Shown: positions 17,878-64,000 of the stretch, one piece after another
How the letters are laid out: the number at the start of each line of letters is the position of its first letter
Position numbering within the stretch: position 1 is the stretch's first letter
Sequence record: PZ445442.1
DNA length: 64,000 nucleotides
Reading direction: 5' to 3' (one strand)
From: a phage
Program-made: the position numbers and the translations under genes
Notes under the pieces: generated by a model
Seen by the model: the letters and a program-made list of their open reading frames with translations, nothing else
Database searches by the model: none
Told to the model about the DNA's origin: nothing

Positions 17878-17895
17878 TTTTTTAACTGAATTATC

Positions 17896-17922
17896 AAGGG
17901 GCTTAGGCCCCTTTCTTTTTGT
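17896..17922 (+). terminator. intrinsic terminator closing the + strand block (AAGGGGC-ttag-GCCCCTT + TCTTTTTGT)
   Basis: 7-bp perfect stem plus U-run 20 nt after stop. Confidence 0.85.
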
Positions 17923-18409
17923 CTGCTCTTCCCCCTACCATAAACGGCCCTACCTGGCAAGTGGAATAATTGACGAGCCATCAATCCCACACACTGTACA
18001 AACATACATATAAAATAACTATTGCATAATTTTTCATTGTGTGGTAGCAGGGCCATTTTTACACATTTTTCCTTCCAAAATTGCACGTAATGCAGCATTT
18101 GCACAAAATTTAACCTGATGCATATATTCAATAGCTTGTCAACAACTAAAAATCTTTATAAGTCATACACTTACATAACTACAAAAGCGTTTTCTACGTG
18201 AAAAATCGAGTATAACTATAGCCGCCAGATCTCAGAATTTACGTACGCTCGCCATTCTATAGCCTGCTAAGCATTTATTCCAACCATAGAATAACGGAAT
18301 AGTCAATACCTGCATAAAATAATTATTCGTGTAAACTGCATAACATAAATCGGCCCAGGTGTCAACATTTTTCGTAAACAGTCTGGAATTGTCACGTTAG
18401 GTTACCATA

Positions 18410-18760
18410 AGCAGAGAAATCTTTAGTCGTCTAATGTTTACTGTACGTTACTATATTAACTGAAATCATTAGATGACTAATAGAAAGATAAGAAATAATT
18501 AACAATACAATTATTTTATCTGTAACAATAAGGCAACTATGCAAACGAATGGCATGGCGCGACGGAGTCGCGACATAATATAAAAGCAGTAACCATCACC
18601 CCCGTGATAGTTTGTCTGCAAACTATTAATCAGATCATAGTTGCCTTGTATTTAGTTAATCATGACATAACAAGCAAGGCAACTATAGATCTTCTAATAG
18701 TTGCCCTGCTTTTATATTATGTCATAAATTATTAACATGCAAACGAATGGCATGGCTTAT
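18410..18760. repeat. non-coding repeat cluster (direct repeat ATGCAAACGAATGGCATGGC at 18538 and 18728; inverted GACATAATATAAAAGCAG/CTGCTTTTATATTATGTC; AAGGCAACTAT motifs in both orientations; palindrome ATAGTTTG-TCTG-CAAACTAT)
   Basis: Direct reading; no credible ORF. Confidence 0.55.
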
Positions 18761-19329
18761 AATTTTTGAGAAAATAGTCTATACGTGAACAGTAAGGCAT
18801 GCAATAGTAACAATTGTTATTGTATCCAGTGTGTTGAGTATGCCCAGTATGTCACCATTGTGTCCAGTATGTCAGACAAGTTTTCCTCCTCTTTGTCAAG
18901 TGCTGCATGAAAAATTTACAAACTGGTATGGTAGCATTTTTGCGGCCCTGTTTACATTCAGTAATGTATGTATAATCCTTGTTGTGTGGGCGTTTAGACG
19001 TCTAGACGGTTGGAAGTCTACAGGTCAATATCTAATCTATTGGCTGCTAACTATATCCCACACAAATAGTAAGAAATATGATTGTTATATGCGTAAACTG
19101 TAACTCATGTTATCAATCCCTGTATGTATCACCAGTGGTGCGCATAATGGGTATTATGTTAAATTGCCCGTAATGATAACTATTCTCACAATGATAGGTA
19201 TTCTCATTCACCCCAACAAAATAGGTTGCAAATGTTGTGCCACTGTGTGAACGGCCTCACCTATTAATTTGCCTCACTGCCTCGATATTTGAGAATTATT
19301 ATAAAAATGAGAAGTATTCCCATTCCGTC

Positions 19330-19630
19330 CGCCTGGCAGCACTCCAGTCGCTACGGCTCCTGACAGGGCAGCACTCCTGTAGGTCAGGTCAAAATCGGGG
19401 TAGAACTGGACCTGTTCAGATATTTCTGGCTGACTCTTCAGGTCTGTGTGGGAAAAGCCAACCTCTCCGGCGGGGCAGGGGAGGTAAATTAAAAAATTTA
19501 CGTGGTGTATGAAGAGCCCTTCAGGTAAGGCATGTATTATAGGATGAAACCCTCTTCAGGCATGATATTTGTGGGTGTGATATTTGCTGGAAAGCCAGAT
19601 ATGACGGGACTCCCGGCGGGGCAGGGGTAG
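19330..19630. repeat. short GC-rich direct repeats (GGCAGCACTCC x2; C(T)CCGGCGGGGCAGGGG at 19457 and 19609)
   Basis: Direct reading. Confidence 0.45.
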
Positions 19631-20323
19631 TACAGACGGGGAAATATGGGGATGTAGTTGGGGAAATTGATCAGGCAGGTGGGGTATAGGATATGTTACA
19701 AGTATGTTAAATATGGAGGTTGAATATCTGTAGGATTTGTGTGTAAAATCAAAGACTTAAGTGGTGTTGTGGTATTTTCTATAAATAATTCAAGTTTAAT
19801 AGGTAATATTTGCCTCTATCCACTTTGTGTGGTAAACAGATTCAGATGAGATTAGTTTACAAGTGTATACATAATATACAAATTAAAGATACAGGAAACC
19901 CCCCTCCCCCTTCGGCTACCATTCACCTTTTCCTCTGACTGGTACTTAAACACTTATTCAGACTCTTCAGGTTATCACCCATATATCATATGGCAGTGAC
20001 TGGTGTCCTCCGGCCCCTCTTTCGTCACCCGTCCGCTTCGCCATGCTAATGCCATAGCCAAAGGTTCGGTTGTTCACCCTGTTCACTCAGGTGTATCTCC
20101 ATACCCCTTCAAACCGAAGAGAACAGAAAACCCGAATTACTCGGTAAAAGAAAAGAGAAGAACTTAATTTTATCAGGATAGGCAAGAATGTCAAGGCATG
20201 ACTGCTCACTAAACAAGCAAACAGTCATGTGTGGGAGGTAAGTGATTGTGGTGGTGGGAAATTTAGTTGAAAGATGTGTTATAGGTGCGCTTCCAGCACT
20301 TTAGCCGGGCAGCTAATTGTGTG

Positions 20324-36265: not shown

Positions 36266-37534
36266 TCAGCAACCACAACTTCCGTAGTGCTTAACTCGCT
36301 CGATAACTTCCGCTTGCTTACCTTTATTGTAAGGACGGGAGTTAGGACTGGAAAGATATCCAGACACTCTTCGGATCACTGAGATATATTGTTCATCGTG
36401 GCATCCGCACGCAGGGCAGCAGAACCCTTTAGCTGTTGCACTGAACTCACCAGAGAAACCACACTTGAGACATTTATCCACAGGTTGGTTAATACCAAAA
36501 TACATAATGTGTTTATACCCGAAGTCAACAAGAGCCTCTAAAGCATCCAGGTTGTTTTTCAGGTTAGGTGTCTCTACGTATCCGATGTTGCCACCAGAGG
36601 AGATCATAGCAAAACCTTCCTCATACTCCCACTTATCAAAAGGAGAGCTATTTATCCATACTGGCTGATGGAAACTGTTGGTGAGATATTCATGCTCGTG
36701 CTTCAACACTTCCGGATATTCACGATCCAGACAGGTTGCAGCTTTATAGCATAGACTCTCAGAAGGAGTGCCGTACAAGCTAAATGCTAGTCTACTTTCC
36801 TTCTTGTATCGCTCACAAGCATCTCTCATGTGCTGAAGGATTCTAAGAGCTAAAGCCTTGTCACCCTCTCTACCCAAAATCTGACAGGTTTCATACACAC
36901 CAATATACCCAATACTGATGGAAGCGTACCCGTCATAGAAGAGTTTATCAATACTCTCTTCAGGACCCAGGCGAGCAAGAGCGCCTTCACACCACATGAT
37001 AGGGTTCTGCCCTGCCTTGGTGCCTTTCAGACGGTTAACCCTTACAAGGTGAGCTTCATATGCCAAATCCAGATACTCGTCAAGAACGGCAAAGAAATCA
37101 ACACCTTCCGTCTTAGCTTTTGCCGCAATCATTGGTAGGTTAAGGCTAACAACACCCAAGTTGAATCTGCCGAGGTATTTCTCCTCACCTGTTTCCAAGT
37201 CATTGTATTTGCTAAGAAAACTCCGGCAACCCATGCTCGTTACTTTGCCATCTGTCGATCCTGTTACTTTACGATTTAGTGGAACAGAAACAAAGTCAGG
37301 ATAAATCCGCTCTGCAGAGCATTCCAGAGCTAATCGTTTCAAATCATAGTTAGGATCTCCAGGGTTCATGTTGACACCCTCTTCTAGGAAGAACAACACT
37401 TTAGGGAACACAGGTGTGATACGTTCTTCACCAAGACCCATTTTGTGGACTTTCAAGTAGTTTTTGGTAATCATTCTACCAAAGACTGAGGTGTCCAGAC
37501 CTAAACTTAATGTGATGAATGGAGTCTGCTGTCT
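36266..37534 (-). CDS. nrdD: anaerobic ribonucleotide reductase NrdD, exon 2 (C-terminal part; 5' boundary approximate)
   Basis: C-terminal Zn-binding cysteines and glycyl-radical motif RVSGY; frame stays open 93 nt upstream of annotated ATG to the HEG stop. Confidence 0.8.
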   Translation of the reverse strand, partial: RQQTPFITLSLGLDTSVFGRMITKNYLKVHKMGLGEERITPVFPKVLFFLEEGVNMNPGDPNYDLKRLALECSAERIYPDFVSVPLNRKVTGSTDGKVTSMGCRSFLSKYNDLETGEEKYLGRFNLGVVSLNLPMIAAKAKTEGVDFFAVLDEYLDLAYEAHLVRVNRLKGTKAGQNPIMWCEGALARLGPEESIDKLFYDGYASISIGYIGVYETCQILGREGDKALALRILQHMRDACERYKKESRLAFSLYGTPSESLCYKAATCLDREYPEVLKHEHEYLTNSFHQPVWINSSPFDKWEYEEGFAMISSGGNIGYVETPNLKNNLDALEALVDFGYKHIMYFGINQPVDKCLKCGFSGEFSATAKGFCCPACGCHDEQYISVIRRVSGYLSSPNSRPYNKGKQAEVIERVKHYGSCGC

Positions 37535-38325
37535 CCTCCCTGTGTTTCCACAGGGCCAGACTATCTCTTACTCTACTTCAATAAGATAATAACCCTTTAT
37601 TGTGAGATGCTTACCTTCGGCATTTCCTTCGATAGCCCTATGAACGTTACCTACGTTCAAGTTTAAGGCTTTTGCACAGGCATAGAGTGAAGGATATTCA
37701 CCCACCAAGGTTTTCCCTTTGTATGCCTGCACTTTCCTATAGCACTTACCTGGACAAAGTCCTGTTCGGAAAGCATGTCTCTTATTATCTTCCGGCAAAA
37801 CCCACTCTAGGTTAGACGGATGATCATTCAATGTATTGCCATCTTTATGATTCACTTCCCAGTTTTCAGGGTCTTCTGGGACATCCGGCAAACAATACAA
37901 GGCAACAACCCTTGAGGTTTGGATTCGAATCTTTTTACCTTTGTGGTTGAAAGAGTACATATAACGGCGTTTAACATGCTTGTTACCTTTTCCATAACCT
38001 CCCCACAATATTGGGTGTAGCATTCCACGTTTCCCGTATACGTTTCCAACCTCATCAATCACATAGTTTGATTCTTCACCATTAAGAATGATCTTTTTCA
38101 TAGAGCCTCTCCATTTCGAAGTTAGTATTTCAACTAACCCCTACACTACTTGGTTCAGAAATGTTTGTCAAGCATCTCTGCCTTTCGTTAGTCGTTACAA
38201 CCGTTCCAACTCCTGTAAGAACTAGTCACGGGATTGGCATAGCTTTCGCCTTAGCGTTCCCCGTTAGCCGGATTTACCGACCCCTCTTATGAGGTTAGGA
38301 GAGTTTTACAACGGCCAGTTTGTTA
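37535..38325 (-). mobile_element. putative group I intron in nrdD carrying an HNH homing endonuclease (boundaries approximate)
   Basis: Splits NrdD into two ORFs in the same orientation; GACUA (R-like, around 38223-38227), AAGAGAUAGUCU (S-like) right after HEG stop, CCCUGUG-GAAA-CACAGGG hairpin (P9-like), G before exon 2. Confidence 0.65.
37568..38101 (-). CDS. HNH homing endonuclease (HNH_3 type with NUMOD-like N-terminus and C-terminal HTH)
   Basis: WEVNHKDGNTLNDHPSNLEWVLPEDNKRH matches HNH_3 consensus; own RBS GGAGAGG. Confidence 0.85.
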   Translation of the reverse strand: MKKIILNGEESNYVIDEVGNVYGKRGMLHPILWGGYGKGNKHVKRRYMYSFNHKGKKIRIQTSRVVALYCLPDVPEDPENWEVNHKDGNTLNDHPSNLEWVLPEDNKRHAFRTGLCPGKCYRKVQAYKGKTLVGEYPSLYACAKALNLNVGNVHRAIEGNAEGKHLTIKGYYLIEVE

Positions 38326-39186
38326 ACCGTTGACAGAGGTTAACGTATTGATTTGATAGAGCAAAGTCTGCATGCTGTCAAATACATCTTTATCTGTCAT
38401 TTGCATTGCAACAGTTTCAGCATCCGGCAACCAATGTTCCTGGCAAAATTTAAGGTTCTTCTCATAGGTCGCTCCAGCATACTGTGCCAGATAATGATCA
38501 ATATGGCTCATAGTCTGACCTCCATATTGAGCACTAGCTACAGCACTAGAGATTTGGCTAAGGATTGTTGTTGCAACCCCTATTGACTTCGGCTTACTGA
38601 CATGGGCGTTACCAATGTTGAATCCGTTTTCCAACATATCTGGATAATTTACCAAACAACAGTTTGTTAACGGACTGATCAAGTAGTCAAGATCATGCAC
38701 ATGGATGAAGCCTTTATTGTGCTCTTCTGAAACACGGTCTGGCAGGATCTGTGTTGATGCAAGGTGTTTGCTAAGGATGCCTGCAAGCAGGTCACGATGA
38801 GTGTGTACATGATTAGTAGGCTTATTTGCGTTTTCTTTTGTAAATTCATCACAAGTTCGATCCAAGAAGCCACTAATATCTGCAAGCAGTTTTCCACCTG
38901 CCTCTCTGTTATTATCTCTTGTCTGTCTATACTGGATGTATTCTCTGGCTGCACATTTTAAACCCATATCCATAAGAGCATCTTCAACAAGGATATGGAT
39001 ATTTTTTACAGAGATCGTGCACTGGTCGGTTGGTAGATTGTTAGCCACAACTTCATTAACCGCGCAGGCGATCCGGTAAGCTTCTTCTTCAGTATGTCCA
39101 GACTCAAGTAAGGCGGACTCTGCCGCCTTGATCACCTTAATTCCGTTATAGAACTCTTCTCTACCGTCCCGTTTTACAACTTTCAC
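38323..39186 (-). CDS. nrdD: anaerobic ribonucleotide reductase NrdD, exon 1 (N-terminal ATP-cone part)
   Basis: MKVVKRDGREE ATP-cone start, HVHDLDY motif; stop lies just inside intron. Confidence 0.8.
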   Translation of the reverse strand: MKVVKRDGREEFYNGIKVIKAAESALLESGHTEEEAYRIACAVNEVVANNLPTDQCTISVKNIHILVEDALMDMGLKCAAREYIQYRQTRDNNREAGGKLLADISGFLDRTCDEFTKENANKPTNHVHTHRDLLAGILSKHLASTQILPDRVSEEHNKGFIHVHDLDYLISPLTNCCLVNYPDMLENGFNIGNAHVSKPKSIGVATTILSQISSAVASAQYGGQTMSHIDHYLAQYAGATYEKNLKFCQEHWLPDAETVAMQMTDKDVFDSMQTLLYQINTLTSVNG

Positions 39187-56795: not shown

Positions 56796-57146
56796 TCAGT
56801 AGATGTTTTGTTTAATCTCTATTCCAAACTTCTTGAATGAGTCAGCAGCAAGCATAAATTTACGAGCTGCCGATGGATTAGAAGTATGCACGAAAATAAT
56901 CACGTTGTCAATAAGTGGTGGCTTTCCGAATACAAGTTTCTCCTCTAGCGCAGAGAAGCAGTCGTACCCTTCAAGCACTTCACCTAGATCATTGTCAAAA
57001 TACCACTCAGATACGCGTCTGTAGAGCTTTCTCTTATCATTAAGAAAATCCATAAACTCAGAAGAATTCTTTAGCCACAGAGCGTCTGGGAGTCCATAAT
57101 CTGACGGATCTCTAAAATCATCAAGCCACACAATCCACTTCTTCAT
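56796..57146 (-). CDS. hypothetical protein
   Basis: 116-aa ORF between RNA ligase and Sir2, 4-nt overlap with ligase. Confidence 0.45.
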   Translation of the reverse strand: MKKWIVWLDDFRDPSDYGLPDALWLKNSSEFMDFLNDKRKLYRRVSEWYFDNDLGEVLEGYDCFSALEEKLVFGKPPLIDNVIIFVHTSNPSAARKFMLAADSFKKFGIEIKQNIY

Positions 57147-58078
57147 TGCATATAGTCCTCGTTGTGGAAATAGTAGTCCAGTATCTCACGACGCTCCTGC
57201 TCTAATAAGCAATTCCACACATCTTCTGTATAGTTGCTACGAATAAATTTTACCATACCGTAAAACTCTTCGTCAACACGTTTAAAGATATCATCATCCC
57301 AAATCTTCCAAGCTTTACCCCTCATTACTGCCTTCCGTGCCAGATAGTATGGAGACTTGATCTTCAGCTGCAGATCATAAGGGTAGTAAGGCTTACGAAT
57401 CATATACCCTTCACCTCTTGTTTCTGCAGCTAATTCTTTTGCATAGCTGAACGGAATTTCACGCACAGTGTTAGGACGTTTTGCACCAAGGTATTTGGCA
57501 ATCCCATCTAAAGCTGCTTCTGGTAGCATTATTCCAGAATCATTATATCTGCAACCTATCAAATATGCGCCATGATCTTCCTGAACAATATGCGGATCTG
57601 AAGGGTGGCAAATTTCAAACATGAATGTCATGTTTTCATTGCCCATAACCTTCTTGATAAGATCTAAATTACCACATTGCTCCCTGATGGTTTCTTTTGC
57701 GAGGTTACAATATGGGGAATCAAGAGACCCGGTTGTTGAGAACAATAGTTCACCTTTATGAGATGATACCACACCGAGGAATCCGTTCTTTTTCTCTACC
57801 GCAGTAACAAGTTTACTGTCCGGTAGGTTGGTGGAGTTTTCTCCTAAGTTGAATACTTTTGTGAAAGGCCATGCCACAACATTCCCCTCATTGCCAACAA
57901 CAATACCTCGGCACTCCAGTAAACGCGGAGACAAATGCCACAGATTGTTGTAGAATACTTTTCTGGCATATTTATAGATCTTTAATCCAAGATCTGGATA
58001 ATACCGACTGGTTACAAGACCTTTGTCAACCAGGTCGTCTGCATTAAAATACTTCATTATACGTTCCTCATTTGTCAT
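57143..58078 (-). CDS. polynucleotide (RNA) ligase, Rnl1/Trl1-like
   Basis: Nucleotidyltransferase motifs I EKKNGF (KxNG), IV GEGYMIRK, V LQLKIKSP. Confidence 0.6.
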   Translation of the reverse strand: MTNEERIMKYFNADDLVDKGLVTSRYYPDLGLKIYKYARKVFYNNLWHLSPRLLECRGIVVGNEGNVVAWPFTKVFNLGENSTNLPDSKLVTAVEKKNGFLGVVSSHKGELLFSTTGSLDSPYCNLAKETIREQCGNLDLIKKVMGNENMTFMFEICHPSDPHIVQEDHGAYLIGCRYNDSGIMLPEAALDGIAKYLGAKRPNTVREIPFSYAKELAAETRGEGYMIRKPYYPYDLQLKIKSPYYLARKAVMRGKAWKIWDDDIFKRVDEEFYGMVKFIRSNYTEDVWNCLLEQERREILDYYFHNEDYMQ

Positions 58079-58121
58079 TTTGTCAGTCTATCCTGCCACA
58101 CAAATAACCTAGTGTCAACAC

Positions 58122-58150
58122 TTGAAATTAACAAAACAGTTAGGTATACT
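58122..58150 (+). promoter_or_regulatory. sigma70-like promoter TTGAAA-N17-TATACT for kinase/phosphatase operon
   Basis: Hexamers and spacing read directly. Confidence 0.5.
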
Positions 58151-58178
58151 ACCGTTGAAATTAAAACGGAGGGTCACT

Positions 58179-58589
58179 ATGTTTAAAATGCTATATATCG
58201 TGCGTGGTCTACCAGGGTCTGGCAAATCAACACTGGCAAATGCGCTATCTTTAGAGGGTCTGTATCCACATTTTGAGAACGACATGTTCTGGTATGACGA
58301 TGACGGCAATTACAACTGGGATGCAAGTAAAGTAACACTCGCAGCAAAATGGTGCAAAGATAACGTAGAAGATATGATGCGTATGGGATACGACCGTATC
58401 GTGGTAAGTAATACGTTTACAAAAGAAAAACATGTGCAGGAATATGTTGACATGGCAATCAGTCATGGGTATAGTTATACCGTGATCGTGGTTGAAAACC
58501 GCCACGGTAATAAAAGCATTCATGATGTTCCAGACAAGGTTGTGGATCGTATGGAACGCCAGCTTAAAAACTGCATTAAACTTAAATGA
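58179..58589 (+). CDS. P-loop polynucleotide kinase-like protein
   Basis: Walker A GLPGSGKST; ATG 58179 with ACGGAGGG RBS; about 136 aa. Confidence 0.55.
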   Translation: MFKMLYIVRGLPGSGKSTLANALSLEGLYPHFENDMFWYDDDGNYNWDASKVTLAAKWCKDNVEDMMRMGYDRIVVSNTFTKEKHVQEYVDMAISHGYSYTVIVVENRHGNKSIHDVPDKVVDRMERQLKNCIKLK

Positions 58590-58596
58590 GGAATGT

Positions 58597-59151
58597 ATGA
58601 AATACTTTGTAACAAGCGACACACACTTTCTCCACCAGCAGGTCATGGAGTTTGATTCATGTCAAAAACACAGATCTCAGTATGATCACAATCTTGACAG
58701 TATGAATGCGGGAATCATCGCCGAGTGGAACTCTGTTGTGTCACCTGCAGACACTGTGTTCCACTTGGGAGATATTGCGTGCACTAATGATAAGAATATC
58801 AACAACTTACTTCCAGATATTCTAAATATGTTGAACGGACATATTATTCTTGTTCGTGGCAACCATGACACAAGGACGACTGTCAGAATTATGAAAGAGT
58901 TCGGTCATGAGGTTGTAGATTATTACGAGCTTCGCCACAACAAGAATTTGATCTGTATGAGCCATTACCAGTTTGCAAAGTGGAACAGAAAGCCTCACGG
59001 ATCAGTCCAACTGTTCGGTCATGCTCACGGAACCACACAACAGTTGTTTGGCAGGCAGCTTGATGTCGGTTGGGATGTGTGGGGGAGACTCTTACCATTA
59101 GAAGAGGCATACCGTATTGCAATGAGTTTTGATATTGACAGCAGGGAGTAA
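58597..59151 (+). CDS. calcineurin-like metallophosphoesterase
   Basis: Motifs DTHF, GDIA, GNHD, GHAHG; ATG 58597. Confidence 0.7.
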   Translation: MKYFVTSDTHFLHQQVMEFDSCQKHRSQYDHNLDSMNAGIIAEWNSVVSPADTVFHLGDIACTNDKNINNLLPDILNMLNGHIILVRGNHDTRTTVRIMKEFGHEVVDYYELRHNKNLICMSHYQFAKWNRKPHGSVQLFGHAHGTTQQLFGRQLDVGWDVWGRLLPLEEAYRIAMSFDIDSRE

Positions 59152-59198
59152 TCCCTGCTATTTTAAAGAAAATTGCCACACAAGGAGAATCAGGAGAT

Positions 59199-59549
59199 AT
59201 GAAAGATGGGGATAAGCTGCTATATCTTAAAGTCCCCCTTGAAATACTATCTATGTCAAAAGTTTTGAATGACACAACTGGGGAGGTTGTTGTTCTTGAC
59301 TTGTATGACAAGATCGTATACTGCTACCTGCACAACTGGTATAAGCTTGGAGGAAATTCACGCTTCACACCAAGCACAAGGAAAATTGCAGCAGATGTTG
59401 GGATAAAGAAAACAAAAGCAGCAGCGTGCGTTAAAACTTTAGAATGTGCAGGAGTGGTTGAAACATCCACACAAGGGAGAGGTAAAAGATGCACATTTTC
59501 CAAAGTTTTGCCACCAGAAGAAGTTATTCGGATGTCAACAACTGGTTAG
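59199..59549 (+). CDS. putative DNA-binding protein (winged-helix/HTH-like)
   Basis: 116-aa ORF, AAGGAGAATCAGGAG RBS; followed by iteron array. Confidence 0.4.
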   Translation: MKDGDKLLYLKVPLEILSMSKVLNDTTGEVVVLDLYDKIVYCYLHNWYKLGGNSRFTPSTRKIAADVGIKKTKAAACVKTLECAGVVETSTQGRGKRCTFSKVLPPEEVIRMSTTG

Positions 59550-59624
59550 ACCAGTAAAAACTTAAATATCTGTACTATAAGGATTCGTATGTTTTATGTT
59601 CGCCATGGAACGGATACTATTAAC

Positions 59625-59705
59625 TGTCCGTGATACGGACACTACTGTCCGTCACGCGGACACATCTGCCCGTAATACGGACACTAACTGTCCGTGATAC
59701 GGACA
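59625..59705. repeat. four direct copies (about 22-bp phasing) of palindromic site GTCCGTGATACGGACAC (GTCCGT-N3-ACGGAC), then AT-rich tract
   Basis: Copies at 59625, 59645, 59667, 59689. Confidence 0.8.
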
Positions 59706-60209
59706 CATAAAGAATATAACTAAAATAACTAAATAATAAAAAATAAAAGATCTAGTACTTATGGTACTAAGTACATATACTTAACTTATGTAGAATATAC
59801 TAGATCCCAAGTACCATGTTTTAAATTTATTACTTACTATGGGCAGTGTCGGCCCTTCATTGGCACTCGCCTACGAGGGGCGAGATGCCGGGCCTCCTTG
59901 GTGCACACAATAACAGAAGTGCATACATGCAGGTCTGTTAACATGTGTGGGAGCGAAGCTATAGCGCAGGCCAAAGGCCGAGCAATGATGTGGACCACCG
60001 ACGAAAGCTTGCCAGCGCCGTAAGGAGTCGGTTGAGAGTCTCCCGCGCGAGCTTGGATGAAGTTTATGTGTGGAAACTGACAAGAAGGCCCCTAAATCGC
60101 TCCACAGCTATATAAACTATACCAGGTAATGCAATCGCACCAGTTTGATAGAAAAGCTCGTTACAAAGCGATACAGTGAGTTTTTCTATAACTTGAAGAG
60201 GAGGCAGCT

Positions 60210-60788
60210 ATGGGTTCACGCAAAGATGACCGTGAAAAGATTGCAAAACGTTATCAGAATGAAGAACAGATGGAGAAAACTTTCAAGTGGAAGCCCGGTT
60301 TCCAGCGTAATCATTCTAACGCCCGTGATCGTAAGCATCCGGATAAGTGGCTAACACCGCCAAATGATGTCATGCAGGTTGGGGATGAGAAGGAGATGTC
60401 GCCTGGAAAAGATGGCAACTACATTCGCACTAAGGACGCTGGTCCAAAGGATGACAGCTATCTTGTAGATAAGGTTCTTGATGGTATCAATGTAGATGTT
60501 GACACTGCACGAAACCTTTTTCTTGGGTGGTATCGCACAGGTTTTTTCGACATCAAGGCTATTCGTCGTGTTTGTGATATTAAAAAGTCTGCATATGATG
60601 ACGACTCGTTACATCGCACCCTGAGACAATATTCAGAAAGATATGGTCATCCGGTTATCACTCTTGACGATGTTAACGAAGTGATGTATCATGCAGAGGT
60701 TGTTGCAGGAAGATTTGGTGATGCATATCTTGATATCCTTTCTGCAAAGGATGAGGTAATGTTAAATAAGATTTACTATGAACGCTGA
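60210..60788 (+). CDS. hypothetical protein
   Basis: 192-aa ORF with GAGGAGG RBS. Confidence 0.55.
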   Translation: MGSRKDDREKIAKRYQNEEQMEKTFKWKPGFQRNHSNARDRKHPDKWLTPPNDVMQVGDEKEMSPGKDGNYIRTKDAGPKDDSYLVDKVLDGINVDVDTARNLFLGWYRTGFFDIKAIRRVCDIKKSAYDDDSLHRTLRQYSERYGHPVITLDDVNEVMYHAEVVAGRFGDAYLDILSAKDEVMLNKIYYER

Positions 60789-60987
60789 GGAGCGCTTAAT
60801 GAACAACCCGGTAGCAAAGAACTGTAATAAGTTCAACAAGTCTGCAATTCACACTGACAGGAAAAAGAGCTGGTCTCCTGACATTGACGAGGAGCTTGAG
60901 AGTTACTTTGAAGACCTGGTCACTAATGCAGATGAGGTTGCGATTAAAGAATACGCAGACAGGAAGGATAAGGCCGGAATCTGTTGA
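60778..60987 (+). CDS. hypothetical protein
   Basis: 69-aa ORF overlapping upstream stop. Confidence 0.45.
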   Translation: MNAEERLMNNPVAKNCNKFNKSAIHTDRKKSWSPDIDEELESYFEDLVTNADEVAIKEYADRKDKAGIC

Positions 60988-61063
60988 CAAAAATAGTGTT
61001 ACCTGATAAGATCTGCAATATGATGTGATGCAATTTTAACTTACGAGGTCTACAGGTAATGCT

Positions 61064-61306
61064 ATGTTTAAGGTTAAGCTCGTTTTTCGTTCCATGAATG
61101 AGGATTATTTAGAAGATGAAGGTGAATTTCGTGCACTGGATGATGCAATAGATTTTGCCAACGACTTAGCTTGTATGAATACGGGTTATGGGCTATGCTG
61201 TTGGGATGGTGGTGTTCAGATCGGTGATAGCAAGATCTTCTACTTCTACCCTGAGCCTGATAACAAACAAATTAAGTATGTTTTATTTATTTGTGCTTTA
61301 CAATGA
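61064..61306 (+). CDS. hypothetical acidic protein
   Basis: 80-aa ORF. Confidence 0.45.
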   Translation: MFKVKLVFRSMNEDYLEDEGEFRALDDAIDFANDLACMNTGYGLCCWDGGVQIGDSKIFYFYPEPDNKQIKYVLFICALQ

Positions 61307-61593
61307 GGTTGTTTTCGTGTATCATGATGAATATCCAATTTAAAGATGAATTTGATGGCTTTATCTCCGGATGCTTTGAAACAGGGTTCGGAGAAGGCTG
61401 AGTTCCCCTTAGAGGGCTTGATAGTGCACCACACTTAAAATGGTAGGGGCAGCCAGCACATGACGATGTGACCCCAGCCAACCTGTAATAAGGTCGAGCC
61501 AAAGTGCGGTAATGGGCTCTGGTAACCCACTTGTTGGGTCTTGCTGGTCCAGGACGCTGGACAAGTCGCAGGGAATACCACCCTGCGGCGAAC

Positions 61594-61622
61594 TTGACAA
61601 TCAGTATTTGCTATGATAAAAT
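61594..61622 (+). promoter_or_regulatory. sigma70-like promoter TTGACA-N17-TAAAAT with downstream palindrome TATCACGTGATA
   Basis: Read directly; palindrome 61627-61638 could be an operator. Confidence 0.55.
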
Positions 61623-61650
61623 CCACCTATCACGTGATAATGGAGGAAAC

Positions 61651-61989
61651 ATGGCGGATACAACTAAAAAGCGTCGCCGTAGAGGCAGACCTCTGAAAGA
61701 GGAGTCCAACGCCATTCAGCTAGAGAAGAACATCCTTGATATGAAGGAATCTTTTATAGCGATGGTTCCAGAAGCTCACAAAGTTTTAAGAGAGCTGATG
61801 TTGGACCCGAAAACCAAACAAAATATTCGTCAAAGCATTGCAGAGTATGTTCTTGATAAGGCAGACCGAATGCAGGAAGAATATGATGAGATGTTTGGTG
61901 AAGAGGAAGAGGTGGTAGTAGAAGAGGCTGAAAAACCAGCACCTTTTATGCCATTTACCACAGAAATACAACCTGTTAGCAATAGCTAA
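61651..61989 (+). CDS. hypothetical basic/acidic protein with AT-hook-like KKRRRRGRP N-terminus
   Basis: ATG 61651 after GGAGGAA. Confidence 0.5.
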   Translation: MADTTKKRRRRGRPLKEESNAIQLEKNILDMKESFIAMVPEAHKVLRELMLDPKTKQNIRQSIAEYVLDKADRMQEEYDEMFGEEEEVVVEEAEKPAPFMPFTTEIQPVSNS

Positions 61990-61998
61990 AATATTTTC

Positions 61999-62027
61999 TT
62001 GACAAACTTTGCTTAACAGTGTAATAT
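61999..62027 (+). promoter_or_regulatory. sigma70-like promoter TTGACA-N17-TAATAT upstream of tRNA cluster
   Basis: Consensus hexamers about 60 nt upstream of first tRNA. Confidence 0.6.
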
Positions 62028-62086
62028 TGTAAACATGGTCTCCCACCTTTTCTGGCGGCTAAGGTGTAAAAGAAAGCCACCCAGTG

Positions 62087-62161
62087 CCCTGTTAGCTTAG
62101 TGGATAAAGCAGCGGCCTTCTAAGCCGTTGACACTGGTTCGAGTCCAGTACGGGGTGCCAA
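62087..62161 (+). tRNA. tRNA-Arg (anticodon UCU)
   Basis: Manual cloverleaf: acceptor GCCCTGT/ACGGGGT, D-arm GCTT/AAGC, anticodon loop CTTCTAA, T-arm ACTGG-TTCGAGT-CCAGT, CCA encoded. Confidence 0.8.
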
Positions 62162-62165
62162 ATTG

Positions 62166-62252
62166 GGGAGTTATCCCGTAGGGGTAGCGGTGTAGACTGT
62201 AAATCTATTGTCATTGCGACTCGGGTGGTTCGACTCCACCACTCCCCACCAA
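62166..62252 (+). tRNA. tRNA-Tyr (anticodon GUA), type II with long variable arm
   Basis: Acceptor GGGGAGT/ACTCCCC, anticodon stem GTAGA/TCTAT, loop CTGTAAA, variable arm hairpin, T-arm GGTGG-TTCGACT-CCACC, CCA encoded. Confidence 0.75.
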
Positions 62253-62366
62253 ATTTATATTTTTAAATGCATAAATCATACAGATAATGACATTGATATT
62301 TATCGTCGTTTATACTAGTCACTAACTGCTCGAAAATCAGTGTCATTATCAGTGTAATTTATAAAG

Positions 62367-62457
62367 GAGGGTAGGGAGCAATGGTGCTCAAGCGGTCTTG
62401 AAAACCGTCCCGTTGAGGATGACTCGATGATGGTTCGATTCCATTACTCTCCGCCAC
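62367..62457 (+). tRNA. tRNA-Ser (anticodon UGA), type II
   Basis: Acceptor GGAGGGT/ACTCTCC, anticodon stem GCGGT/ACCGT, loop CTTGAAA, long variable arm, T-arm GATGG-TTCGATT-CCATT, CCA encoded. Confidence 0.7.
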
Positions 62458-62554
62458 ATTGTTGACCTTGTAATTAAGCGAAAGCCGGAAGCAGAACCGG
62501 ATTATCAAATGTTACAGTCGTCATCGCCGACTAGCCACATGGTCAACATATTGC

Positions 62555-62653
62555 GCTAGGTAAGCCCTTTGGCAAGGGCGAGGATTTTTAATCCTGAAAA
62601 TAGACGAGGTAGTCGTTGAATACATAGGTGGTTCGATTCCATCACCTAGCACC
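62555..62653 (+). tRNA. atypical tRNA-like element (possible tRNA-Lys UUU with about 30-nt insertion in variable region; may be non-functional)
   Basis: Acceptor GCTAGGT/ACCTAGC 7/7, D-arm GCCC-TTTGGCAA-GGGC, T-arm GGTGG-TTCGATT-CCATC, but the anticodon arm is irregular and the element is about 97 nt. Confidence 0.4.
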
Positions 62654-62657
62654 TTTT

Positions 62658-62733
62658 GCTGATGTAGCACAATTGGCAGTGCAATTGATTTGTAATCAAT
62701 AGGTTGCAGGTTCAAGTCCTGCCATCAGCACCA
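62658..62733 (+). tRNA. tRNA-Thr (anticodon UGU)
   Basis: Acceptor GCTGATG/CATCAGC, D-arm GCAC/GTGC, anticodon stem ATTGA/TCAAT, loop TTTGTAA, T-arm GCAGG-TTCAAGT-CCTGC, CCA. Confidence 0.8.
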
Positions 62734-62734
62734 T

Positions 62735-62809
62735 GGCCCTGTAGCTGGAAGGTTCAAGCAAGCGACTCATAATCGCCAGACGGTGGTTCAATTCCACCCA
62801 GGGCCACCA
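62735..62809 (+). tRNA. tRNA-Met or tRNA-Ile2 (anticodon CAU)
   Basis: Acceptor GGCCCTG/CAGGGCC, anticodon loop CTCATAA, T-arm GGTGG-TTCAATT-CCACC, CCA. Confidence 0.75.
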
Positions 62810-62820
62810 AATAATAAATA

Positions 62821-62897
62821 CTCCGCGTAGCTCAGCTTGGTAGAGCGCCTGATTTGGGATCAGGAGGTCGAGTGTTCGAATCACTCCGTGGAGACCA
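62821..62897 (+). tRNA. tRNA-Pro (anticodon UGG)
   Basis: Acceptor CTCCGCG/CGTGGAG (C1-G72), D-arm GCTC/GAGC, anticodon stem CCTGA/TCAGG, loop TTTGGGA, T-arm GAGTG-TTCGAAT-CACTC, CCA. Confidence 0.8.
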
Positions 62898-62943
62898 CCT
62901 TTAGTTATACTTTAAATATATATACACAAAAGGAACCTTTAAA

Positions 62944-63213
62944 ATGTATACACTTAAAATTGTAGAACGTGTAAATCCAACCCATACTGTAGATTTTCGT
63001 GACGATTTCAACCCTCTTGCTGTAAATCTTCGAGAGTCGTATCATGAACTAAGCTGCGATGCAGTTGTGGTCTTCTTTGAAGACAACTCTGAAGGGGCAG
63101 TAGCTTGTGTTGTTGATAGCGAGCAGAAGTTTTATATTTACAGAGATGTGGATGCTTACTTGATGAATGAGAATGCGGTTACTGTCAGAATCATCCACCG
63201 AGTGCCTCGATAA
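62944..63213 (+). CDS. hypothetical protein
   Basis: 89-aa ORF with AAGGAA RBS. Confidence 0.5.
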   Translation: MYTLKIVERVNPTHTVDFRDDFNPLAVNLRESYHELSCDAVVVFFEDNSEGAVACVVDSEQKFYIYRDVDAYLMNENAVTVRIIHRVPR

Positions 63214-63269
63214 GTATTAGTCTCCTTTTAGTTAGTTTCGATCTATTTAGGTTACTCAATTTTAACCCG

Positions 63270-63303
63270 CCCCGTTAGCTGTATAGCTGCGGGGTTTTTT
63301 CGT
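63270..63303 (+). terminator. intrinsic terminator (CCCCG...CGGGG hairpin + TTTTTTCGTTT)
   Basis: GC-rich nested hairpin followed by T-run after gene 62944-63213. Confidence 0.75.
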
Positions 63304-63318
63304 TTCTGGAGCCTTAAA

Positions 63319-63717
63319 ATGATTTCAGTTTTAACATTGATGAGTAAATACAGAGGGATCATAAAAGGTTTAGTTTTTGCAGCGGCTATAGGTATGGCTT
63401 ATCTTGGGGCCGTGTATTGGTTTAACTCTAAGCTCAATGATGCTTATCAGGAAGGTGTGTCAGCAACAGAGTTAAAGTGGGAACGGATCCTTGATCAGCA
63501 ACAAAAGCAGGCTGACAAAATTAAAATGGGCCACGCAGAGGAGGTTAAAAACCTTGAAAAATCTCTTTCTGACCTACAGGATAAATTAAATATGGCTGAG
63601 AAGGCAGGTAAAGAAAAGCAGATTATCTACCTCCAATCACCTGAAGGTAAGAAGTCAACACTCCCTGATCAGCTTATAGATATTTATAATGAGAGTATCA
63701 ATCAGGAGGGTCGATGA
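63319..63717 (+). CDS. putative i-spanin (Rz-like)
   Basis: N-terminal TM helix then coiled-coil periplasmic domain; directly followed by overlapping lipoprotein gene. Confidence 0.55.
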   Translation: MISVLTLMSKYRGIIKGLVFAAAIGMAYLGAVYWFNSKLNDAYQEGVSATELKWERILDQQQKQADKIKMGHAEEVKNLEKSLSDLQDKLNMAEKAGKEKQIIYLQSPEGKKSTLPDQLIDIYNESINQEGR

Positions 63718-64000
63718 GAGTTGCTACACTGTTTATTGTGTGCTTGTTATTATGTGGGTGTGCAACAAGCGTTGAGAGAGAATACAAGATTGACCCTCCG
63801 GATGTAGGAAGGTTGATTGTTAAACCCCCGGAAGGTGCCATGAAACCACCTGCTAAAGCTATGCCTTTGAAGAAAGGTGCGCCAGATGCAGTGAATTCTG
63901 GCATTATGAGGGATAATAATCTGTCTTGTAGCAATGATAGAGCTAAATTGATCATTTTGCAAGACTATATTAGAACACTGTTTCCAAAGGAGAGAGGTTA
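63714..64000 (+). CDS. putative o-spanin (Rz1-like lipoprotein), 3' end beyond window
   Basis: MRVATLFIVCLLLCGCATS lipobox, Pro-rich mature region; ATGA overlap with i-spanin stop; AGGAGGG RBS. Confidence 0.55.
   Translation, partial: MRVATLFIVCLLLCGCATSVEREYKIDPPDVGRLIVKPPEGAMKPPAKAMPLKKGAPDAVNSGIMRDNNLSCSNDRAKLIILQDYIRTLFPKERG

What the first reader, a model, noticed from the sequence alone, without database searches (positions are those of the whole stretch)
57143..59151. Split RNA-repair module: RNA ligase divergent from P-loop kinase and metallophosphoesterase, next to a tRNA cluster
A ligase with nucleotidyltransferase motifs I (KxNG, as in T4 Rnl1 / Trl1-type RNA ligases), IV (EGYMIRK) and V (LKIK) is transcribed divergently from a Walker-A kinase (GLPGSGKST) and a calcineurin-like phosphoesterase (DxH, GDxx, GNHD). 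Together these are the three activities of a polynucleotide kinase-phosphatase plus ligase healing-and-sealing pathway (T4 Pnk/Rnl1; bacterial Pnkp, which fuses kinase, metallophosphoesterase and ligase domains). Here they are three separate genes, about 3 kb from the tRNA genes. The architecture suggests a counter-defence against host anticodon nucleases or a tRNA end-repair system; this split arrangement with a Trl1-like KxNG ligase may be undescribed.
Basis: partly seen in the sequence, partly recalled or inferred. Interest (0 to 1): 0.8.

Follow-up and report, generated by a model that had tools for sequence, protein, structure and literature searches.

The report
Phage RNA end-repair gene cluster
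This is a real but already annotated gene cluster of an rV5-like coliphage: an RNA ligase, a small polynucleotide kinase and a metallophosphoesterase that most likely re-join cut tRNAs. It was described by comparative genomics in 2022 and has never been tested biochemically.

Summary
Three intact genes sit at 57143-59151: a T4-Rnl1-family RNA ligase (minus strand), and a 136-aa P-loop kinase and a 184-aa binuclear metallophosphoesterase (plus strand). All the quoted motifs are present.

Profile and fold searches place the ligase among RNA ligases (T4 Rnl1, Trl1, Rnl3), not DNA ligases. They place the kinase next to T4 Pnk, Clostridium Pnk and Pnkp1.

Ligase, kinase and phosphoesterase lie within 4 kb of each other in seven unrelated phage genera. 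An RNA healing-and-sealing module is therefore the best reading (about 0.65).

- The window is Escherichia phage EmilHeitz (Bas49), whose GenBank record already names these genes.
- Iyer et al. 2022 described this neighbourhood using phage V5 as prototype.
- "Trl1-like" rests on one residue.
- The phosphoesterase is not of the lambda/CthPnkp clade, and it also occurs alone in many phages.
- tRNA adjacency and the divergent layout are not conserved.
- In sister phage Bas54, transposon insertions in all these genes are tolerated on E. coli K-12.

Verdict: ordinary, already known, biochemically untested.

The parts
57143..58060 (-). Stand-alone Rnl1-family ATP-dependent RNA ligase, 305 aa (the longest ORF runs to 58078). 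The predicted AMP-accepting lysine is K90 in KKNG.
   Evidence: PF09511 9.9e-15; phrog_562 1.8e-65. Family profile A1 hits T4 Rnl1 2C5U at 2.1e-13. It aligns R51/K68/F70/K90/G93/E149/E217-G218/K233/K235/Y239 with T4 R54/K75/F77/K99/G102/E159/E227-G228/K240/K242/Y246. AF2 model pLDDT 93.4. Foldseek top hits are RNA ligases.
58061..58178 (.). Divergent intergenic region holding the Shine-Dalgarno sequences of both genes and a sigma-70-like site for the kinase/phosphoesterase unit.
   Evidence: TTGAAA-17-TATACT at 58122-58150 on the + strand (consensus match only, and the scan as a whole is not enriched). GGAGG lies before ATG 58179, and GAGGA before the ligase ATG at 58060 on the - strand.
58179..58589 (+). 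136-aa P-loop kinase of the polynucleotide-kinase clade. It has Walker A GLPGSGKST, a candidate general base D35, and a conserved ENRH lid.
   Evidence: AAA_33 1e-10; phrog_505 'polynucleotide kinase' 5.6e-10. Profile A2 hits T4 Pnk 1LTQ at 6.6e-8 over the full length with D35 aligned to T4 D35, and Pnkp1 4XRP at 1.7e-5. AF2 pLDDT 84. Foldseek top hits are CthPnk, T4 Pnk and Pnkp1.
58597..59151 (+). 184-aa binuclear metallophosphoesterase (DxH / GD / GNHD / H / GHxH). It is the candidate 2',3'-cyclic-phosphate and 3'-phosphate end-healing enzyme.
   Evidence: Metallophos_2 1.6e-6; phrog_547 2.1e-51. All metal-ligand motifs are invariant in 7 lineages. The closest solved relative is aq_1665 (1XM7, 9.7e-20), which is uncharacterised. 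Its function in RNA healing is inferred from gene linkage only.
56796..57146 (-). cREC protein ('cyclic-phosphate processing receiver' domain), 116 aa. Its start overlaps the ligase stop by 4 nt (ATGA), so the two are probably translationally coupled.
   Evidence: PF20274 9.1e-14; phrog_1479. It lies next to the ligase in 343 enterobacterial phage records. It is present in Vequintavirus and Phapecoctavirus loci only.
56026..56787 (-). Sir2-family NAD-dependent enzyme, 253 aa. It has the GAGxS...GIPxFR and HG motifs and no Zn-ribbon cysteines.
   Evidence: PF02146 6.9e-28; phrog_2162 1.5e-108; CobB-like subfamily model 1.3e-35, below its cut-off. Iyer et al. 2022 name it as the centre of this neighbourhood. 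It also occurs in T5-like phages that have no such ligase.
55299..56012 (-). MazG-like nucleotide pyrophosphohydrolase candidate, 237 aa.
   Evidence: phrog_671 5.7e-22; no Pfam or NCBIfam match. A 31%-identical homologue lies 2.3 kb from the kinase in phage ukendt. Listed by Iyer et al. 2022 as part of the neighbourhood.
62086..62897 (+). Cluster of seven tRNA genes (Arg-UCU, Tyr, Ser, Lys-UUU with a long variable arm, Thr, Met/Ile-CAU, Pro). This is genomic context, not a conserved part of the module.
   Evidence: ARAGORN; Rfam. tRNA genes lie within 7 kb of the ligase in only 3 of 8 lineages.

Best explanation
The three genes form a stand-alone RNA end-healing and end-sealing set.

Proposed pathway:
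1. A metal-independent ribonuclease, such as a host anticodon nuclease of the PrrC/RloC, colicin or HEPN type, cuts a tRNA or other RNA. [quoted passage not shown]
2. The 136-aa P-loop kinase phosphorylates the 5'-OH.
3. The binuclear metallophosphoesterase opens and removes the cyclic or 3'-phosphate to give a 3'-OH.
4. The Rnl1-family ligase self-adenylylates on K90, transfers AMP to the 5'-phosphate and seals the break.

Functionally this is the T4 Pnkp + Rnl1 pathway. Here a metallophosphoesterase, as in bacterial Pnkp, replaces T4's HAD phosphatase, and each activity sits on its own small protein. In Vequintaviruses the co-oriented cREC, Sir2 and MazG-like genes are lineage-specific additions that may handle 2'-phosphate or ADP-ribose by-products.

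Shown here: family membership and conserved catalytic residues of the ligase and kinase, intact metal-binding motifs of the phosphoesterase, and conserved gene linkage.

Inferred: the RNA substrate, the role of the phosphoesterase in 3' healing, and the counter-defence purpose.
For: - Ligase family: Pfam RNA_lig_T4_1. The family profile hits only T4 Rnl1 among PDB sequences (2e-13), with the catalytic residues aligned.
- Ligase fold: a confident model whose best structural matches are RNA ligases, with DNA ligases about 6 orders of magnitude weaker.
- Kinase: the best sequence-profile and fold matches are T4 Pnk, CthPnk and Pnkp1, and the general-base Asp is aligned.
- Phosphoesterase: all binuclear-metal motifs are invariant.
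- Linkage: ligase, kinase and phosphoesterase lie within 4 kb in Vequinta-, Phapecocta-, Otago-, Thalassa-, Pakpuna-, Saclay- and Shenzhen-virus, whose flanking genes otherwise differ.
- Co-distribution of ligase and kinase: 662 versus 621 phage records with almost identical genus counts, for example Escherichia 199/198, Pseudomonas 175/173, Klebsiella 36/36 and Acinetobacter 24/24.
- Substitution: Streptomyces phages with a related ligase carry a T4-type Pnk instead, which is the replacement expected of one pathway.
- Fusion: a phage family (phrog_8238) matches the kinase at its N-terminus and the ligase at its C-terminus, so fused versions exist.
- Dispensability: in the congeneric phage Bas54, which has the same gene order and gene lengths, transposon insertions are tolerated in the ligase (mean count 192), kinase (171), phosphoesterase (140), cREC (88) and Sir2 (406). 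The adjacent regulator scores 13.6. T4 rnlA does not tolerate insertions in its N-terminal domain. This fits an accessory, host-dependent function and argues against a virion-assembly role.
- Precedent: binuclear metallophosphoesterases are known to heal 2',3'-cyclic phosphate ends (CthPnkp and lambda phosphatase; abstract of PMC2190708). The classical model is reviewed by Iyer et al. 2022.
Against: - No member of this ligase, kinase or phosphoesterase subfamily was found to be biochemically characterised.
- The phosphoesterase has no detectable sequence relation to lambda phosphatase or CthPnkp. Its nearest solved relative is of unknown function.
- The phosphoesterase family is twice as widespread as the ligase (1258 records). 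It occurs without any ligase or kinase nearby in Herelleviridae and T5-like vibriophages.
- Some residues essential in T4 enzymes are not conserved: Rnl1 D101 becomes N and K119 becomes T; Pnk R38 is variable.
- The ligase lacks most of T4 Rnl1's C-terminal tRNA-specificity domain. It scores 37 bits against a 242-bit cut-off for the T4 RnlA equivalog model.
- In the rows of the Bas54 host-comparison table that were retrieved, these genes are not depleted (q 0.75-1.0). The host compared was not identified and the file is truncated.
- tRNA adjacency is not conserved.
Confidence: 0.65

Rival explanations
1. NAD-dependent, yeast/plant-style repair, as proposed by Iyer et al. 2022. cREC (or the phosphoesterase) opens the 2',3'-cyclic phosphate to a 2'-phosphate/3'-OH end. 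The kinase phosphorylates the 5' end and the ligase seals, leaving a 2'-phosphate at the junction. The Sir2 enzyme then removes that phosphate by ADP-ribosyl transfer from NAD, acting like Tpt1/KptA. MazG and the phosphoesterase degrade the ADP-ribose cyclic phosphate by-product.
For: - cREC, Sir2 and MazG-like genes lie directly downstream of the ligase on the same strand, and cREC overlaps the ligase stop codon.
- This reading is published for phage V5.
Trl1-LIG is the top Foldseek hit by a small margin.
- cREC lies next to the ligase in 343 records.
- NAD-salvage genes (NAMPT, PRPP synthetase) adjoin the ligase and kinase in five other genera.
Against: - Sir2 is present in only one of the seven lineages carrying the trio, and cREC in two. 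The core pathway must therefore work without them.
- Sir2 of this clade is abundant in T5-like phages that lack the ligase.
- By sequence the ligase matches T4 Rnl1, which needs no 2'-phosphate, and matches no Trl1 chain.
- No sirtuin is known to remove RNA 2'-phosphates, and cREC is experimentally uncharacterised (Iyer et al.).
Confidence: 0.2
2. The genes are neighbours but work separately. The ligase has some other RNA-processing or morphogenetic role, like T4 gp63 tail-fibre attachment. The kinase acts on a small molecule, for example in nucleotide or NAD metabolism. The phosphoesterase is a general phosphodiesterase or protein phosphatase, for example degrading host signalling nucleotides.
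For: - The phosphoesterase family occurs alone in many phages.
- The kinase belongs to a very large family of roughly 130-aa 'predicted kinases' found in metagenomes.
- Database names such as 'tail attachment protein' persist.
- The module sits in a long block of nucleotide-metabolism genes.
Against: - Ligase and kinase are almost perfectly co-distributed and usually adjacent across genera with otherwise different neighbours.
- The kinase's nearest folds are polynucleotide and tRNA kinases, not nucleoside or nucleotide kinases.
- The module occurs in T5-like siphoviruses (Thalassavirus, Shenzhenvirus), classified outside the T4-like phages.
- Insertions in the Bas54 ligase are tolerated, unlike in T4 rnlA.
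Confidence: 0.1
3. DNA-end processing. The kinase and phosphoesterase clean 5'-OH and 3'-phosphate DNA ends for the phage ATP-dependent DNA ligase encoded nearby, as PNKP does in DNA repair.
For: - An ATP-dependent DNA ligase lies 2.5-6 kb from the RNA ligase in the window and in four other lineages.
- The phosphoesterase weakly resembles the 'ligase-associated DNA damage response' phosphoesterase PdeM (2e-4, far below the cut-off).
- From general knowledge, T4 Pnk also acts on DNA.
Against: - The kinase is adjacent to the RNA ligase, not the DNA ligase, in every lineage.
- The PdeM match is 20.7 bits against a 150-bit cut-off.
- This reading gives the conserved RNA ligase no role.
Confidence: 0.05

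Closest known systems
Sirtuin-centred phage RNA-repair neighbourhood, type 2, of Iyer, Burroughs, Anantharaman and Aravind 2022 (Viruses 14:1977), prototyped by Escherichia phage V5 and Proteus phage Mydo
   Same: It is the same locus. Phage V5 is 97.9% identical to the window here. [quoted passage not shown] All six are present.
   Different: The paper centres the system on Sir2 and treats the phosphoesterase as optional. My comparison shows the opposite pattern across genera: ligase, kinase and phosphoesterase are the constant trio, while Sir2 and cREC are the lineage-specific parts. Neither view has been tested experimentally.
Phage T4 Pnkp (PseT) + RNA ligase 1 (RnlA/gp63), the anticodon-nuclease counter-defence
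   Same: The ligase family is the same, and most catalytic and Rnl1-specific residues are conserved. The kinase has the same fold and general-base Asp as the T4 Pnk kinase domain. The predicted chemistry is the same: 5' phosphorylation, 3' dephosphorylation, ATP-dependent sealing.
   Different: - The kinase is a free 136-aa protein with no HAD (DxDxT) phosphatase domain.
- 3' healing is assigned to a separate metallophosphoesterase.
- The ligase is 305 aa rather than 374 aa, with only a short helical tail in place of the tRNA-specificity domain.
- D101 becomes N and K119 becomes T.
- The ligase falls far below the T4 RnlA equivalog cut-off.
- It is dispensable on K-12, where the N-terminal domain of T4 rnlA is not.
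Bacterial Pnkp/Hen1 (Clostridium thermocellum) and the Pnkp1-Rnl-Hen1 complex (Capnocytophaga gingivalis)
   Same: Both pair a P-loop Pnk kinase with a binuclear metallophosphoesterase and an ATP-dependent RNA ligase. Pnkp1-Rnl-Hen1 already shows the ligase as a separate polypeptide (abstract of PMC4411300). CthPnk and Pnkp1 are among the best structural matches of the kinase.
   Different: - Here all three activities are on separate small proteins.
- No Hen1 methyltransferase is annotated in the part of the record covering the window.
- The phosphoesterase shows no detectable sequence similarity to the lambda-phosphatase-like domain of CthPnkp.
- The ligase matches Pfam's T4 Rnl1 family. From my own knowledge, the ligase domain of bacterial Pnkp belongs to a different family; this was not compared here.
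Fungal/plant Trl1 + Tpt1 tRNA splicing pathway
   Same: The ligase fold is as close to Trl1-LIG as to T4 Rnl1 (Foldseek 4e-12 versus 1e-11). Motif I is KxNG. The presence of cREC and Sir2 allows a hypothetical 2'-phosphate route.
   Different: There is no ligase-kinase-CPDase fusion, no 2H cyclic phosphodiesterase and no Tpt1/KptA. No sequence-profile match to any Trl1 chain was found.

Membership tests
Rnl1 family (T4 RNA ligase 1, Pfam PF09511) | Covalent nucleotidyltransferase motifs I (KxxG lysine), III, IV (EG) and V (KxK) | tested here: met
   K90-x-N-G93, E149, E217-G218 and K233-x-K235 are invariant in 34 diverse homologues. They align to T4 K99/G102, E159, E227-G228 and K240/K242. PF09511 scores 55.4 bits against a cut-off of 28.3.
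Rnl1 family (T4 RNA ligase 1, Pfam PF09511) | Rnl1-specific N-terminal residues (T4 R54, K75, F77) and Y246. The list of essential residues is recalled from the T4 Rnl1 mutagenesis literature. | tested here: met
   R51, K68, F70 and Y239 are invariant and aligned to those T4 positions. Two other T4 positions differ: D101 becomes N92 and K119 becomes T110.
Rnl1 family (T4 RNA ligase 1, Pfam PF09511) | C-terminal all-helical domain (T4 residues 255-374) that confers tRNA specificity | tested here: not met
   The profile alignment ends at T4 residue 249. The protein has only about 65 residues of helices after motif V. The T4 RnlA equivalog model scores 37 bits against a 242-bit cut-off. It is therefore a distinct short subfamily, not a T4 RnlA orthologue.
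Rnl1 family (T4 RNA ligase 1, Pfam PF09511) | ATP-dependent sealing of 3'-OH/5'-phosphate RNA ends | not testable with these tools
   Needs an enzyme assay.
Trl1-type tRNA ligase | Sequence membership, and fusion to kinase and 2H cyclic phosphodiesterase domains | tested here: not met
   No Trl1 chain is matched by the family profile at E<1, although several are in the PDB. The protein is a stand-alone 305-aa ligase. The fold resemblance is equal to that with T4 Rnl1 and Rnl3.
Trl1-type tRNA ligase | Requirement for a 2'-phosphate at the 3'-OH end | not testable with these tools
   Needs an enzyme assay.
Polynucleotide 5'-kinase clade (T4 Pnk / CthPnk / Pnkp1) | P-loop GxxxxGK[ST] plus a general-base Asp about 20 residues downstream, and a Pnk-like fold | tested here: met
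   G10-K16-S17 and D35 are invariant. D35 aligns to T4 D35. The best folds are CthPnk, T4 Pnk and Pnkp1 at TM 0.75-0.79.
Polynucleotide 5'-kinase clade (T4 Pnk / CthPnk / Pnkp1) | Arginines that bind the 5'-OH polynucleotide and the NTP (T4 R38 and R126; recalled from the literature) | tested here: inconclusive
   The T4 R38 position is variable (W/Y/H/L/F/Q). One conserved Arg (R108 in ENRH) aligns to T4 R122 rather than R126, in a gapped region.
T4 Pnkp (bifunctional kinase-phosphatase) | C-terminal HAD/DxDxT 3'-phosphatase domain | tested here: not met
   The protein is 136 aa and covers only T4 residues 1-147. No HAD domain is found in any of the module's proteins.
Bacterial Pnkp (CthPnkp-type) | Single polypeptide with kinase, lambda-phosphatase-like metallophosphoesterase and ligase domains, and a Hen1 partner | tested here: not met
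   The activities are on three separate genes. The phosphoesterase profile finds no lambda-phosphatase or CthPnkp chain at E<10. No Hen1 is annotated in the part of the record covering the window.
Binuclear metallophosphoesterase superfamily (calcineurin-like) | DxH / GD / GNH[DE] / H / GHxH metal-ligand motifs | tested here: met
   D8 and H10, G58-D59, G88-N89-H90, H123 and G141-H142-x-H144 are present. All are invariant in 7 lineages except H10, which one lineage lacks. Both Pfam models score above their cut-offs.
Binuclear metallophosphoesterase superfamily (calcineurin-like) | RNA 2',3'-cyclic phosphodiesterase / 3'-phosphatase activity (the role assigned here) | not testable with these tools
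   Inferred only from conserved linkage with the ligase and kinase. The nearest solved relative, aq_1665, has no known function.
Iyer et al. 2022 sirtuin-linked RNA-repair neighbourhood, type 2 | Co-located sirtuin, T4-like ligase, cREC, nucleotide kinase and MazG, with or without a calcineurin-like phosphoesterase | tested here: met
   All six genes lie at 55299-59151. The locus is 97.9% identical to the named prototype, phage V5. Paper text.

The most novel reading that the evidence does not exclude
In Vequintaviruses the ligase-coupled cREC protein and the Zn-less Sir2 enzyme form a new NAD-dependent branch of RNA repair. cREC opens 2',3'-cyclic phosphates without metal. Sir2 then removes the resulting 2'-phosphate by ADP-ribosyl transfer. 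That would be a Tpt1/KptA-like activity never shown for a sirtuin, and the first demonstrated function for the cREC domain. This is the hypothesis of Iyer et al. 2022, still untested. My data neither exclude it nor favour it as the main route.
Probability: 0.15. Interest if true: 0.7.

Novelty: already known. Interest (0 to 1): 0.3.

Why it matters
If the module works as inferred, about 620-660 sequenced phages of at least seven genera carry a compact three-protein RNA repair kit. These phages infect Escherichia, Klebsiella, Salmonella, Pseudomonas, Vibrio, Acinetobacter and Aeromonas. The kit differs from the T4 paradigm by using a metallophosphoesterase instead of a HAD phosphatase.

That would make resistance to tRNA-cutting defence systems a widespread phage trait. 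It is relevant to the choice of phages for therapy, since many of these genera are used therapeutically. The small enzymes could also be useful reagents.

None of this is a new idea, however. The genes are annotated as such, and the neighbourhood is published. The remaining value lies in biochemical validation and in finding which host nuclease the module counters.

Tried and rejected
- Single-sequence PDB searches with the ligase and kinase found nothing meaningful. Family profiles were needed.
- The 'Trl1-like' label was considered and rejected as membership. The fold match to Trl1 is no better than to T4 Rnl1 or archaeal Rnl3, and there is no sequence-profile match.
- I tested whether the kinase could be an NAD-salvage kinase, because NAMPT and PRPP-synthetase genes adjoin it in five genera. 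Nicotinamide riboside kinase matched only the P-loop and is absent from the top 50 folds. Rejected.
- I tested whether tRNA-gene adjacency is a conserved feature of the module. It is not: 3 of 8 lineages.
- I tested whether the phosphoesterase belongs to the lambda/CthPnkp clade. There is no hit. Only two structure jobs were allowed, so it was not modelled.
- I looked for any biochemical or genetic study of this module in rV5-like or related phages. Only the Bas54 transposon data bear on it.
- The Burroughs and Aravind 2016 paper that first defined cREC is not held in the library.
- The promoter scan of the region is not enriched over shuffles (19 found versus 13.1±3.5). The promoter assignment is therefore tentative.

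Full report
**What is there**

The window matches Escherichia phage EmilHeitz (BASEL phage Bas49, MZ501062.1, genus Vequintavirus). Window 50700-63318 is identical to the record.

The finding's interval holds three intact genes.
- On the minus strand, an RNA ligase at 57143-58060 (305 aa). The longest ORF reaches 58078, but the Shine-Dalgarno sequence, the homologues and GenBank all support the start at 58060.
- On the plus strand, after a 118-bp divergent intergenic region, a 136-aa P-loop kinase at 58179-58589.
- Also on the plus strand, a 184-aa metallophosphoesterase at 58597-59151.

The first tRNA gene is 2.9 kb downstream.

Three more genes follow the ligase on the same strand.
- A cREC ('cyclic-phosphate processing receiver') protein at 56796-57146. 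Its ATG overlaps the ligase stop codon.
- A Sir2-family enzyme at 56026-56787.
- A MazG-like pyrophosphohydrolase candidate at 55299-56012.

An ATP-dependent DNA ligase lies further along at 53389-54672.

**The ligase**

- It matches Pfam RNA_lig_T4_1 (9.9e-15).
- It belongs to a family of roughly 300-aa proteins with 554 homologues in the large protein database and matches in 662 phage records.
- A profile of 34 diverse members hits only T4 Rnl1 among PDB sequences (2.1e-13). The alignment places invariant R51, K68, F70, K90, G93, E149, E217-G218, K233, K235 and Y239 on T4 R54, K75, F77, K99, G102, E159, E227-G228, K240, K242 and Y246. T4 D101 corresponds to an invariant Asn, and K119 to an invariant Thr.
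- A confident model (pLDDT 93.4) matches Trl1 ligase domains, T4 Rnl1 and archaeal Rnl3 about equally (E 4e-12 to 1e-9). DNA ligases are far weaker (1e-5 to 1e-2).

So it is an RNA ligase of the Rnl1/Trl1/Rnl3 group, closest in sequence to T4 Rnl1. It is a distinct short subfamily: the alignment stops at T4 residue 249, only about 65 helical residues follow motif V, and the T4 RnlA equivalog model scores 37 bits against a 242-bit cut-off. 'Trl1-like' is not justified beyond one residue.

**The kinase**

- It matches Pfam AAA_33 (1e-10) and the PHROG 'polynucleotide kinase' family (5.6e-10).
- A profile from seven phage lineages gives T4 Pnk as best PDB hit (6.6e-8, full length, D35 on T4 D35). 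Next come Pnkp1 of the Pnkp1-Rnl-Hen1 complex (1.7e-5) and CthPnk (2.5e-3).
- The model (pLDDT 84) is closest to CthPnk, T4 Pnk and Pnkp1 (TM 0.75-0.79) and to the tRNA kinase PSTK. Gluconate, UMP/CMP, APS and shikimate kinases are clearly worse (TM 0.5-0.6).

One caveat remains: the T4 R38 position is not conserved, and the lid arginine alignment is ambiguous.

**The phosphoesterase**

- The binuclear-metal motifs DxH, GD, GNH[D/C], H and GHxH are present. All are invariant across seven lineages except the His of DxH, which one lineage lacks.
- Its only close solved relative is the uncharacterised Aquifex protein aq_1665 (9.7e-20). Rv0805, GpdQ and YfcE-type phosphodiesterases follow at E of about 0.02 to 1.
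- Neither lambda phosphatase nor the CthPnkp phosphatase appears, even at E<10.
- NCBIfam gives only sub-threshold hints (PdeM, YfcE).

Its role in RNA 3'-end healing is an inference from gene linkage, not from homology to a proven healing enzyme.

**Linkage**

I fetched loci around ligase homologues from eight phage lineages and searched them with the window's proteins.
- Ligase, kinase and phosphoesterase lie within 4 kb of each other in seven genera: Vequintavirus, Phapecoctavirus, Otagovirus, Thalassavirus, Pakpunavirus, Saclayvirus and Shenzhenvirus.
- The kinase is next to the ligase in six of the seven. In those six the genes are on the same strand, so the divergent layout is peculiar to Vequintaviruses.
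- cREC is present in two of these lineages and Sir2 in one.
- Streptomyces phages with a related, longer ligase carry a T4-type bifunctional Pnk instead.
- Across the phage collection, ligase and kinase have nearly identical distributions. There are 662 versus 621 records, with Escherichia 199/198, Pseudomonas 175/173, Klebsiella 36/36, Acinetobacter 24/24, Salmonella 14/14 and Aeromonas 13/13.
- The phosphoesterase family is broader (1258 records). It occurs without ligase or kinase in Herelleviridae and T5-like vibriophages.
- The Sir2 clade (988 records) is common in T5-like phages that lack this ligase. cREC (343 records) is confined to enterobacterial phages and sits beside the ligase.
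- tRNA genes lie within 7 kb of the ligase in only three of eight lineages.

**Prior knowledge**

- The GenBank record already annotates 'RNA ligase', 'polynucleotide kinase' and 'putative phosphoresterase'.
[quoted passage not shown] They propose that the sirtuin removes 2'-phosphates in the manner of KptA.
- Phage V5 is 97.9% identical to the window at this locus.

The arrangement is therefore not undescribed. I found no biochemical study of any component.

**Experimental hint**

The supplementary tables of the HIDEN-SEQ preprint (bioRxiv 10.1101/2025.11.20.689424) cover Bas54, a congeneric phage with the same gene order and gene lengths. Mean insertion counts are 192 for the RNA ligase, 171 for the kinase, 140 for the phosphoesterase, 88 for cREC and 406 for Sir2. 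The adjacent regulator scores 13.6. In the rows retrieved, none of these genes is significantly depleted. The same paper reports that T4 rnlA does not tolerate insertions in its N-terminal domain. The module is thus dispensable on E. coli K-12. That fits an accessory, host-dependent function and argues against a tail-fibre-assembly role.

**Most likely mechanism (confidence about 0.65)**

The module heals and seals RNA broken by metal-independent nucleases.
1. The kinase phosphorylates the 5'-OH.
2. The metallophosphoesterase removes the 2',3'-cyclic or 3'-phosphate.
3. The Rnl1-family ligase seals.

This is the T4 pathway with bacterial-Pnkp-style phosphatase chemistry, spread over three small proteins. 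Family placement, catalytic residues and linkage are shown. Substrate, the phosphoesterase's role and the counter-defence purpose are inferred.

The main rival (about 0.2) is the published NAD-dependent route through cREC and Sir2. It may operate in Vequintaviruses, but it cannot be the core mechanism, because five of the seven trio-bearing lineages lack both proteins. Independent functions (about 0.1) and DNA-end repair (about 0.05) are less likely.

**Verdict**

This is a real and sensible finding, but ordinary. The genes are already annotated, and the neighbourhood is already published as a computational prediction. One modest addition comes from this analysis. Sir2 and cREC are the variable parts, which reverses the emphasis of the 2022 description.

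Noticed in passing
window 62555-62653 (+): ARAGORN cannot type this tRNA ('anticodon atcc'). By the Rfam alignment it is a tRNA-Lys(UUU) with a roughly 26-nt insertion in the variable region. The insertion folds into a 5-bp extra stem-loop, giving a class-II-like cloverleaf (MFE -34.2 kcal/mol, z -3.7). That is unusual for tRNA-Lys. It is at least 95% identical in 116 records, most of which leave it unannotated or call it 'tRNA-OTHER'. From general knowledge, tRNA-Lys(UUU) is the target of PrrC and PARIS, so it could be a nuclease-evading replacement tRNA.
   Followed up: partly
L003 8499-12398; L004 10322-13328; L005 8322-11154; L006 12730-14828; L008 14560-14870: In Otago-, Thalassa-, Pakpuna-, Saclay- and Shenzhen-virus the ligase/kinase pair lies close to NAD-salvage genes. 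PRPP synthetase is annotated in all five loci, and nicotinamide phosphoribosyltransferase in four of them; locus L008 ends inside the synthetase gene. This may reflect a functional tie between RNA repair and NAD supply, or simply a shared anti-defence island.
   Followed up: no
L004 6184-6933 (Vibrio phage Quinn): A NinI/lambda-phosphatase-like gene sits immediately upstream of the ligase, in addition to the aq_1665-like phosphoesterase downstream. The locus therefore has two metallophosphoesterases. The lambda-type one belongs to the clade with proven 2',3'-cyclic phosphodiesterase activity.
   Followed up: no
L006 11627-12730 (Acinetobacter phage Aci02-2): A second gene annotated 'putative RNA ligase' (about 367 aa) lies 3.8 kb from the Rnl1-like ligase and directly upstream of the NAD-salvage genes. 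It is not matched by the window's ligase, so it is probably a different ligase family.
   Followed up: no
window about 17878-20323: A roughly 2.4-kb stretch has no annotated gene and only short non-ATG ORFs. It lies where plus-strand genes meet minus-strand genes, and it has only one weak tandem repeat. The HIDEN-SEQ preprint reports no transposon insertions in the equivalent roughly 2-kb intergenic region of Bas54 and suggests an important function.
   Followed up: partly
phage database records MG0656xx: About 23 records labelled 'Campylobacter phage' (host C. jejuni) are 95-100% identical to E. coli rV5-like phages at this locus. They are probably mislabelled or contaminant genomes.
   Followed up: no
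window about 28100, and 63319-64000: The window is not perfectly colinear with MZ501062.1. There is a 96-bp length difference near window 28100, and the last 682 bases run past the record's end. This fits a different start point or a near-identical isolate.
   Followed up: partly
window about 36266-38973 (-): The class III anaerobic ribonucleotide reductase gene is annotated as joined from two pieces, with a putative homing endonuclease gene inside the gap. This implies an intron in nrdD.
   Followed up: no
window 59199-59549 (+): The HTH protein just downstream of the phosphoesterase is labelled DUF6945/HTH_36 by Pfam, 'replication initiation protein' by PHROGs and 'transcriptional regulator' by GenBank. 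Its Bas54 orthologue has about 10-fold fewer transposon insertions than its neighbours (13.6 versus 140-400). It is probably important for fitness and is not part of the repair set.
   Followed up: no
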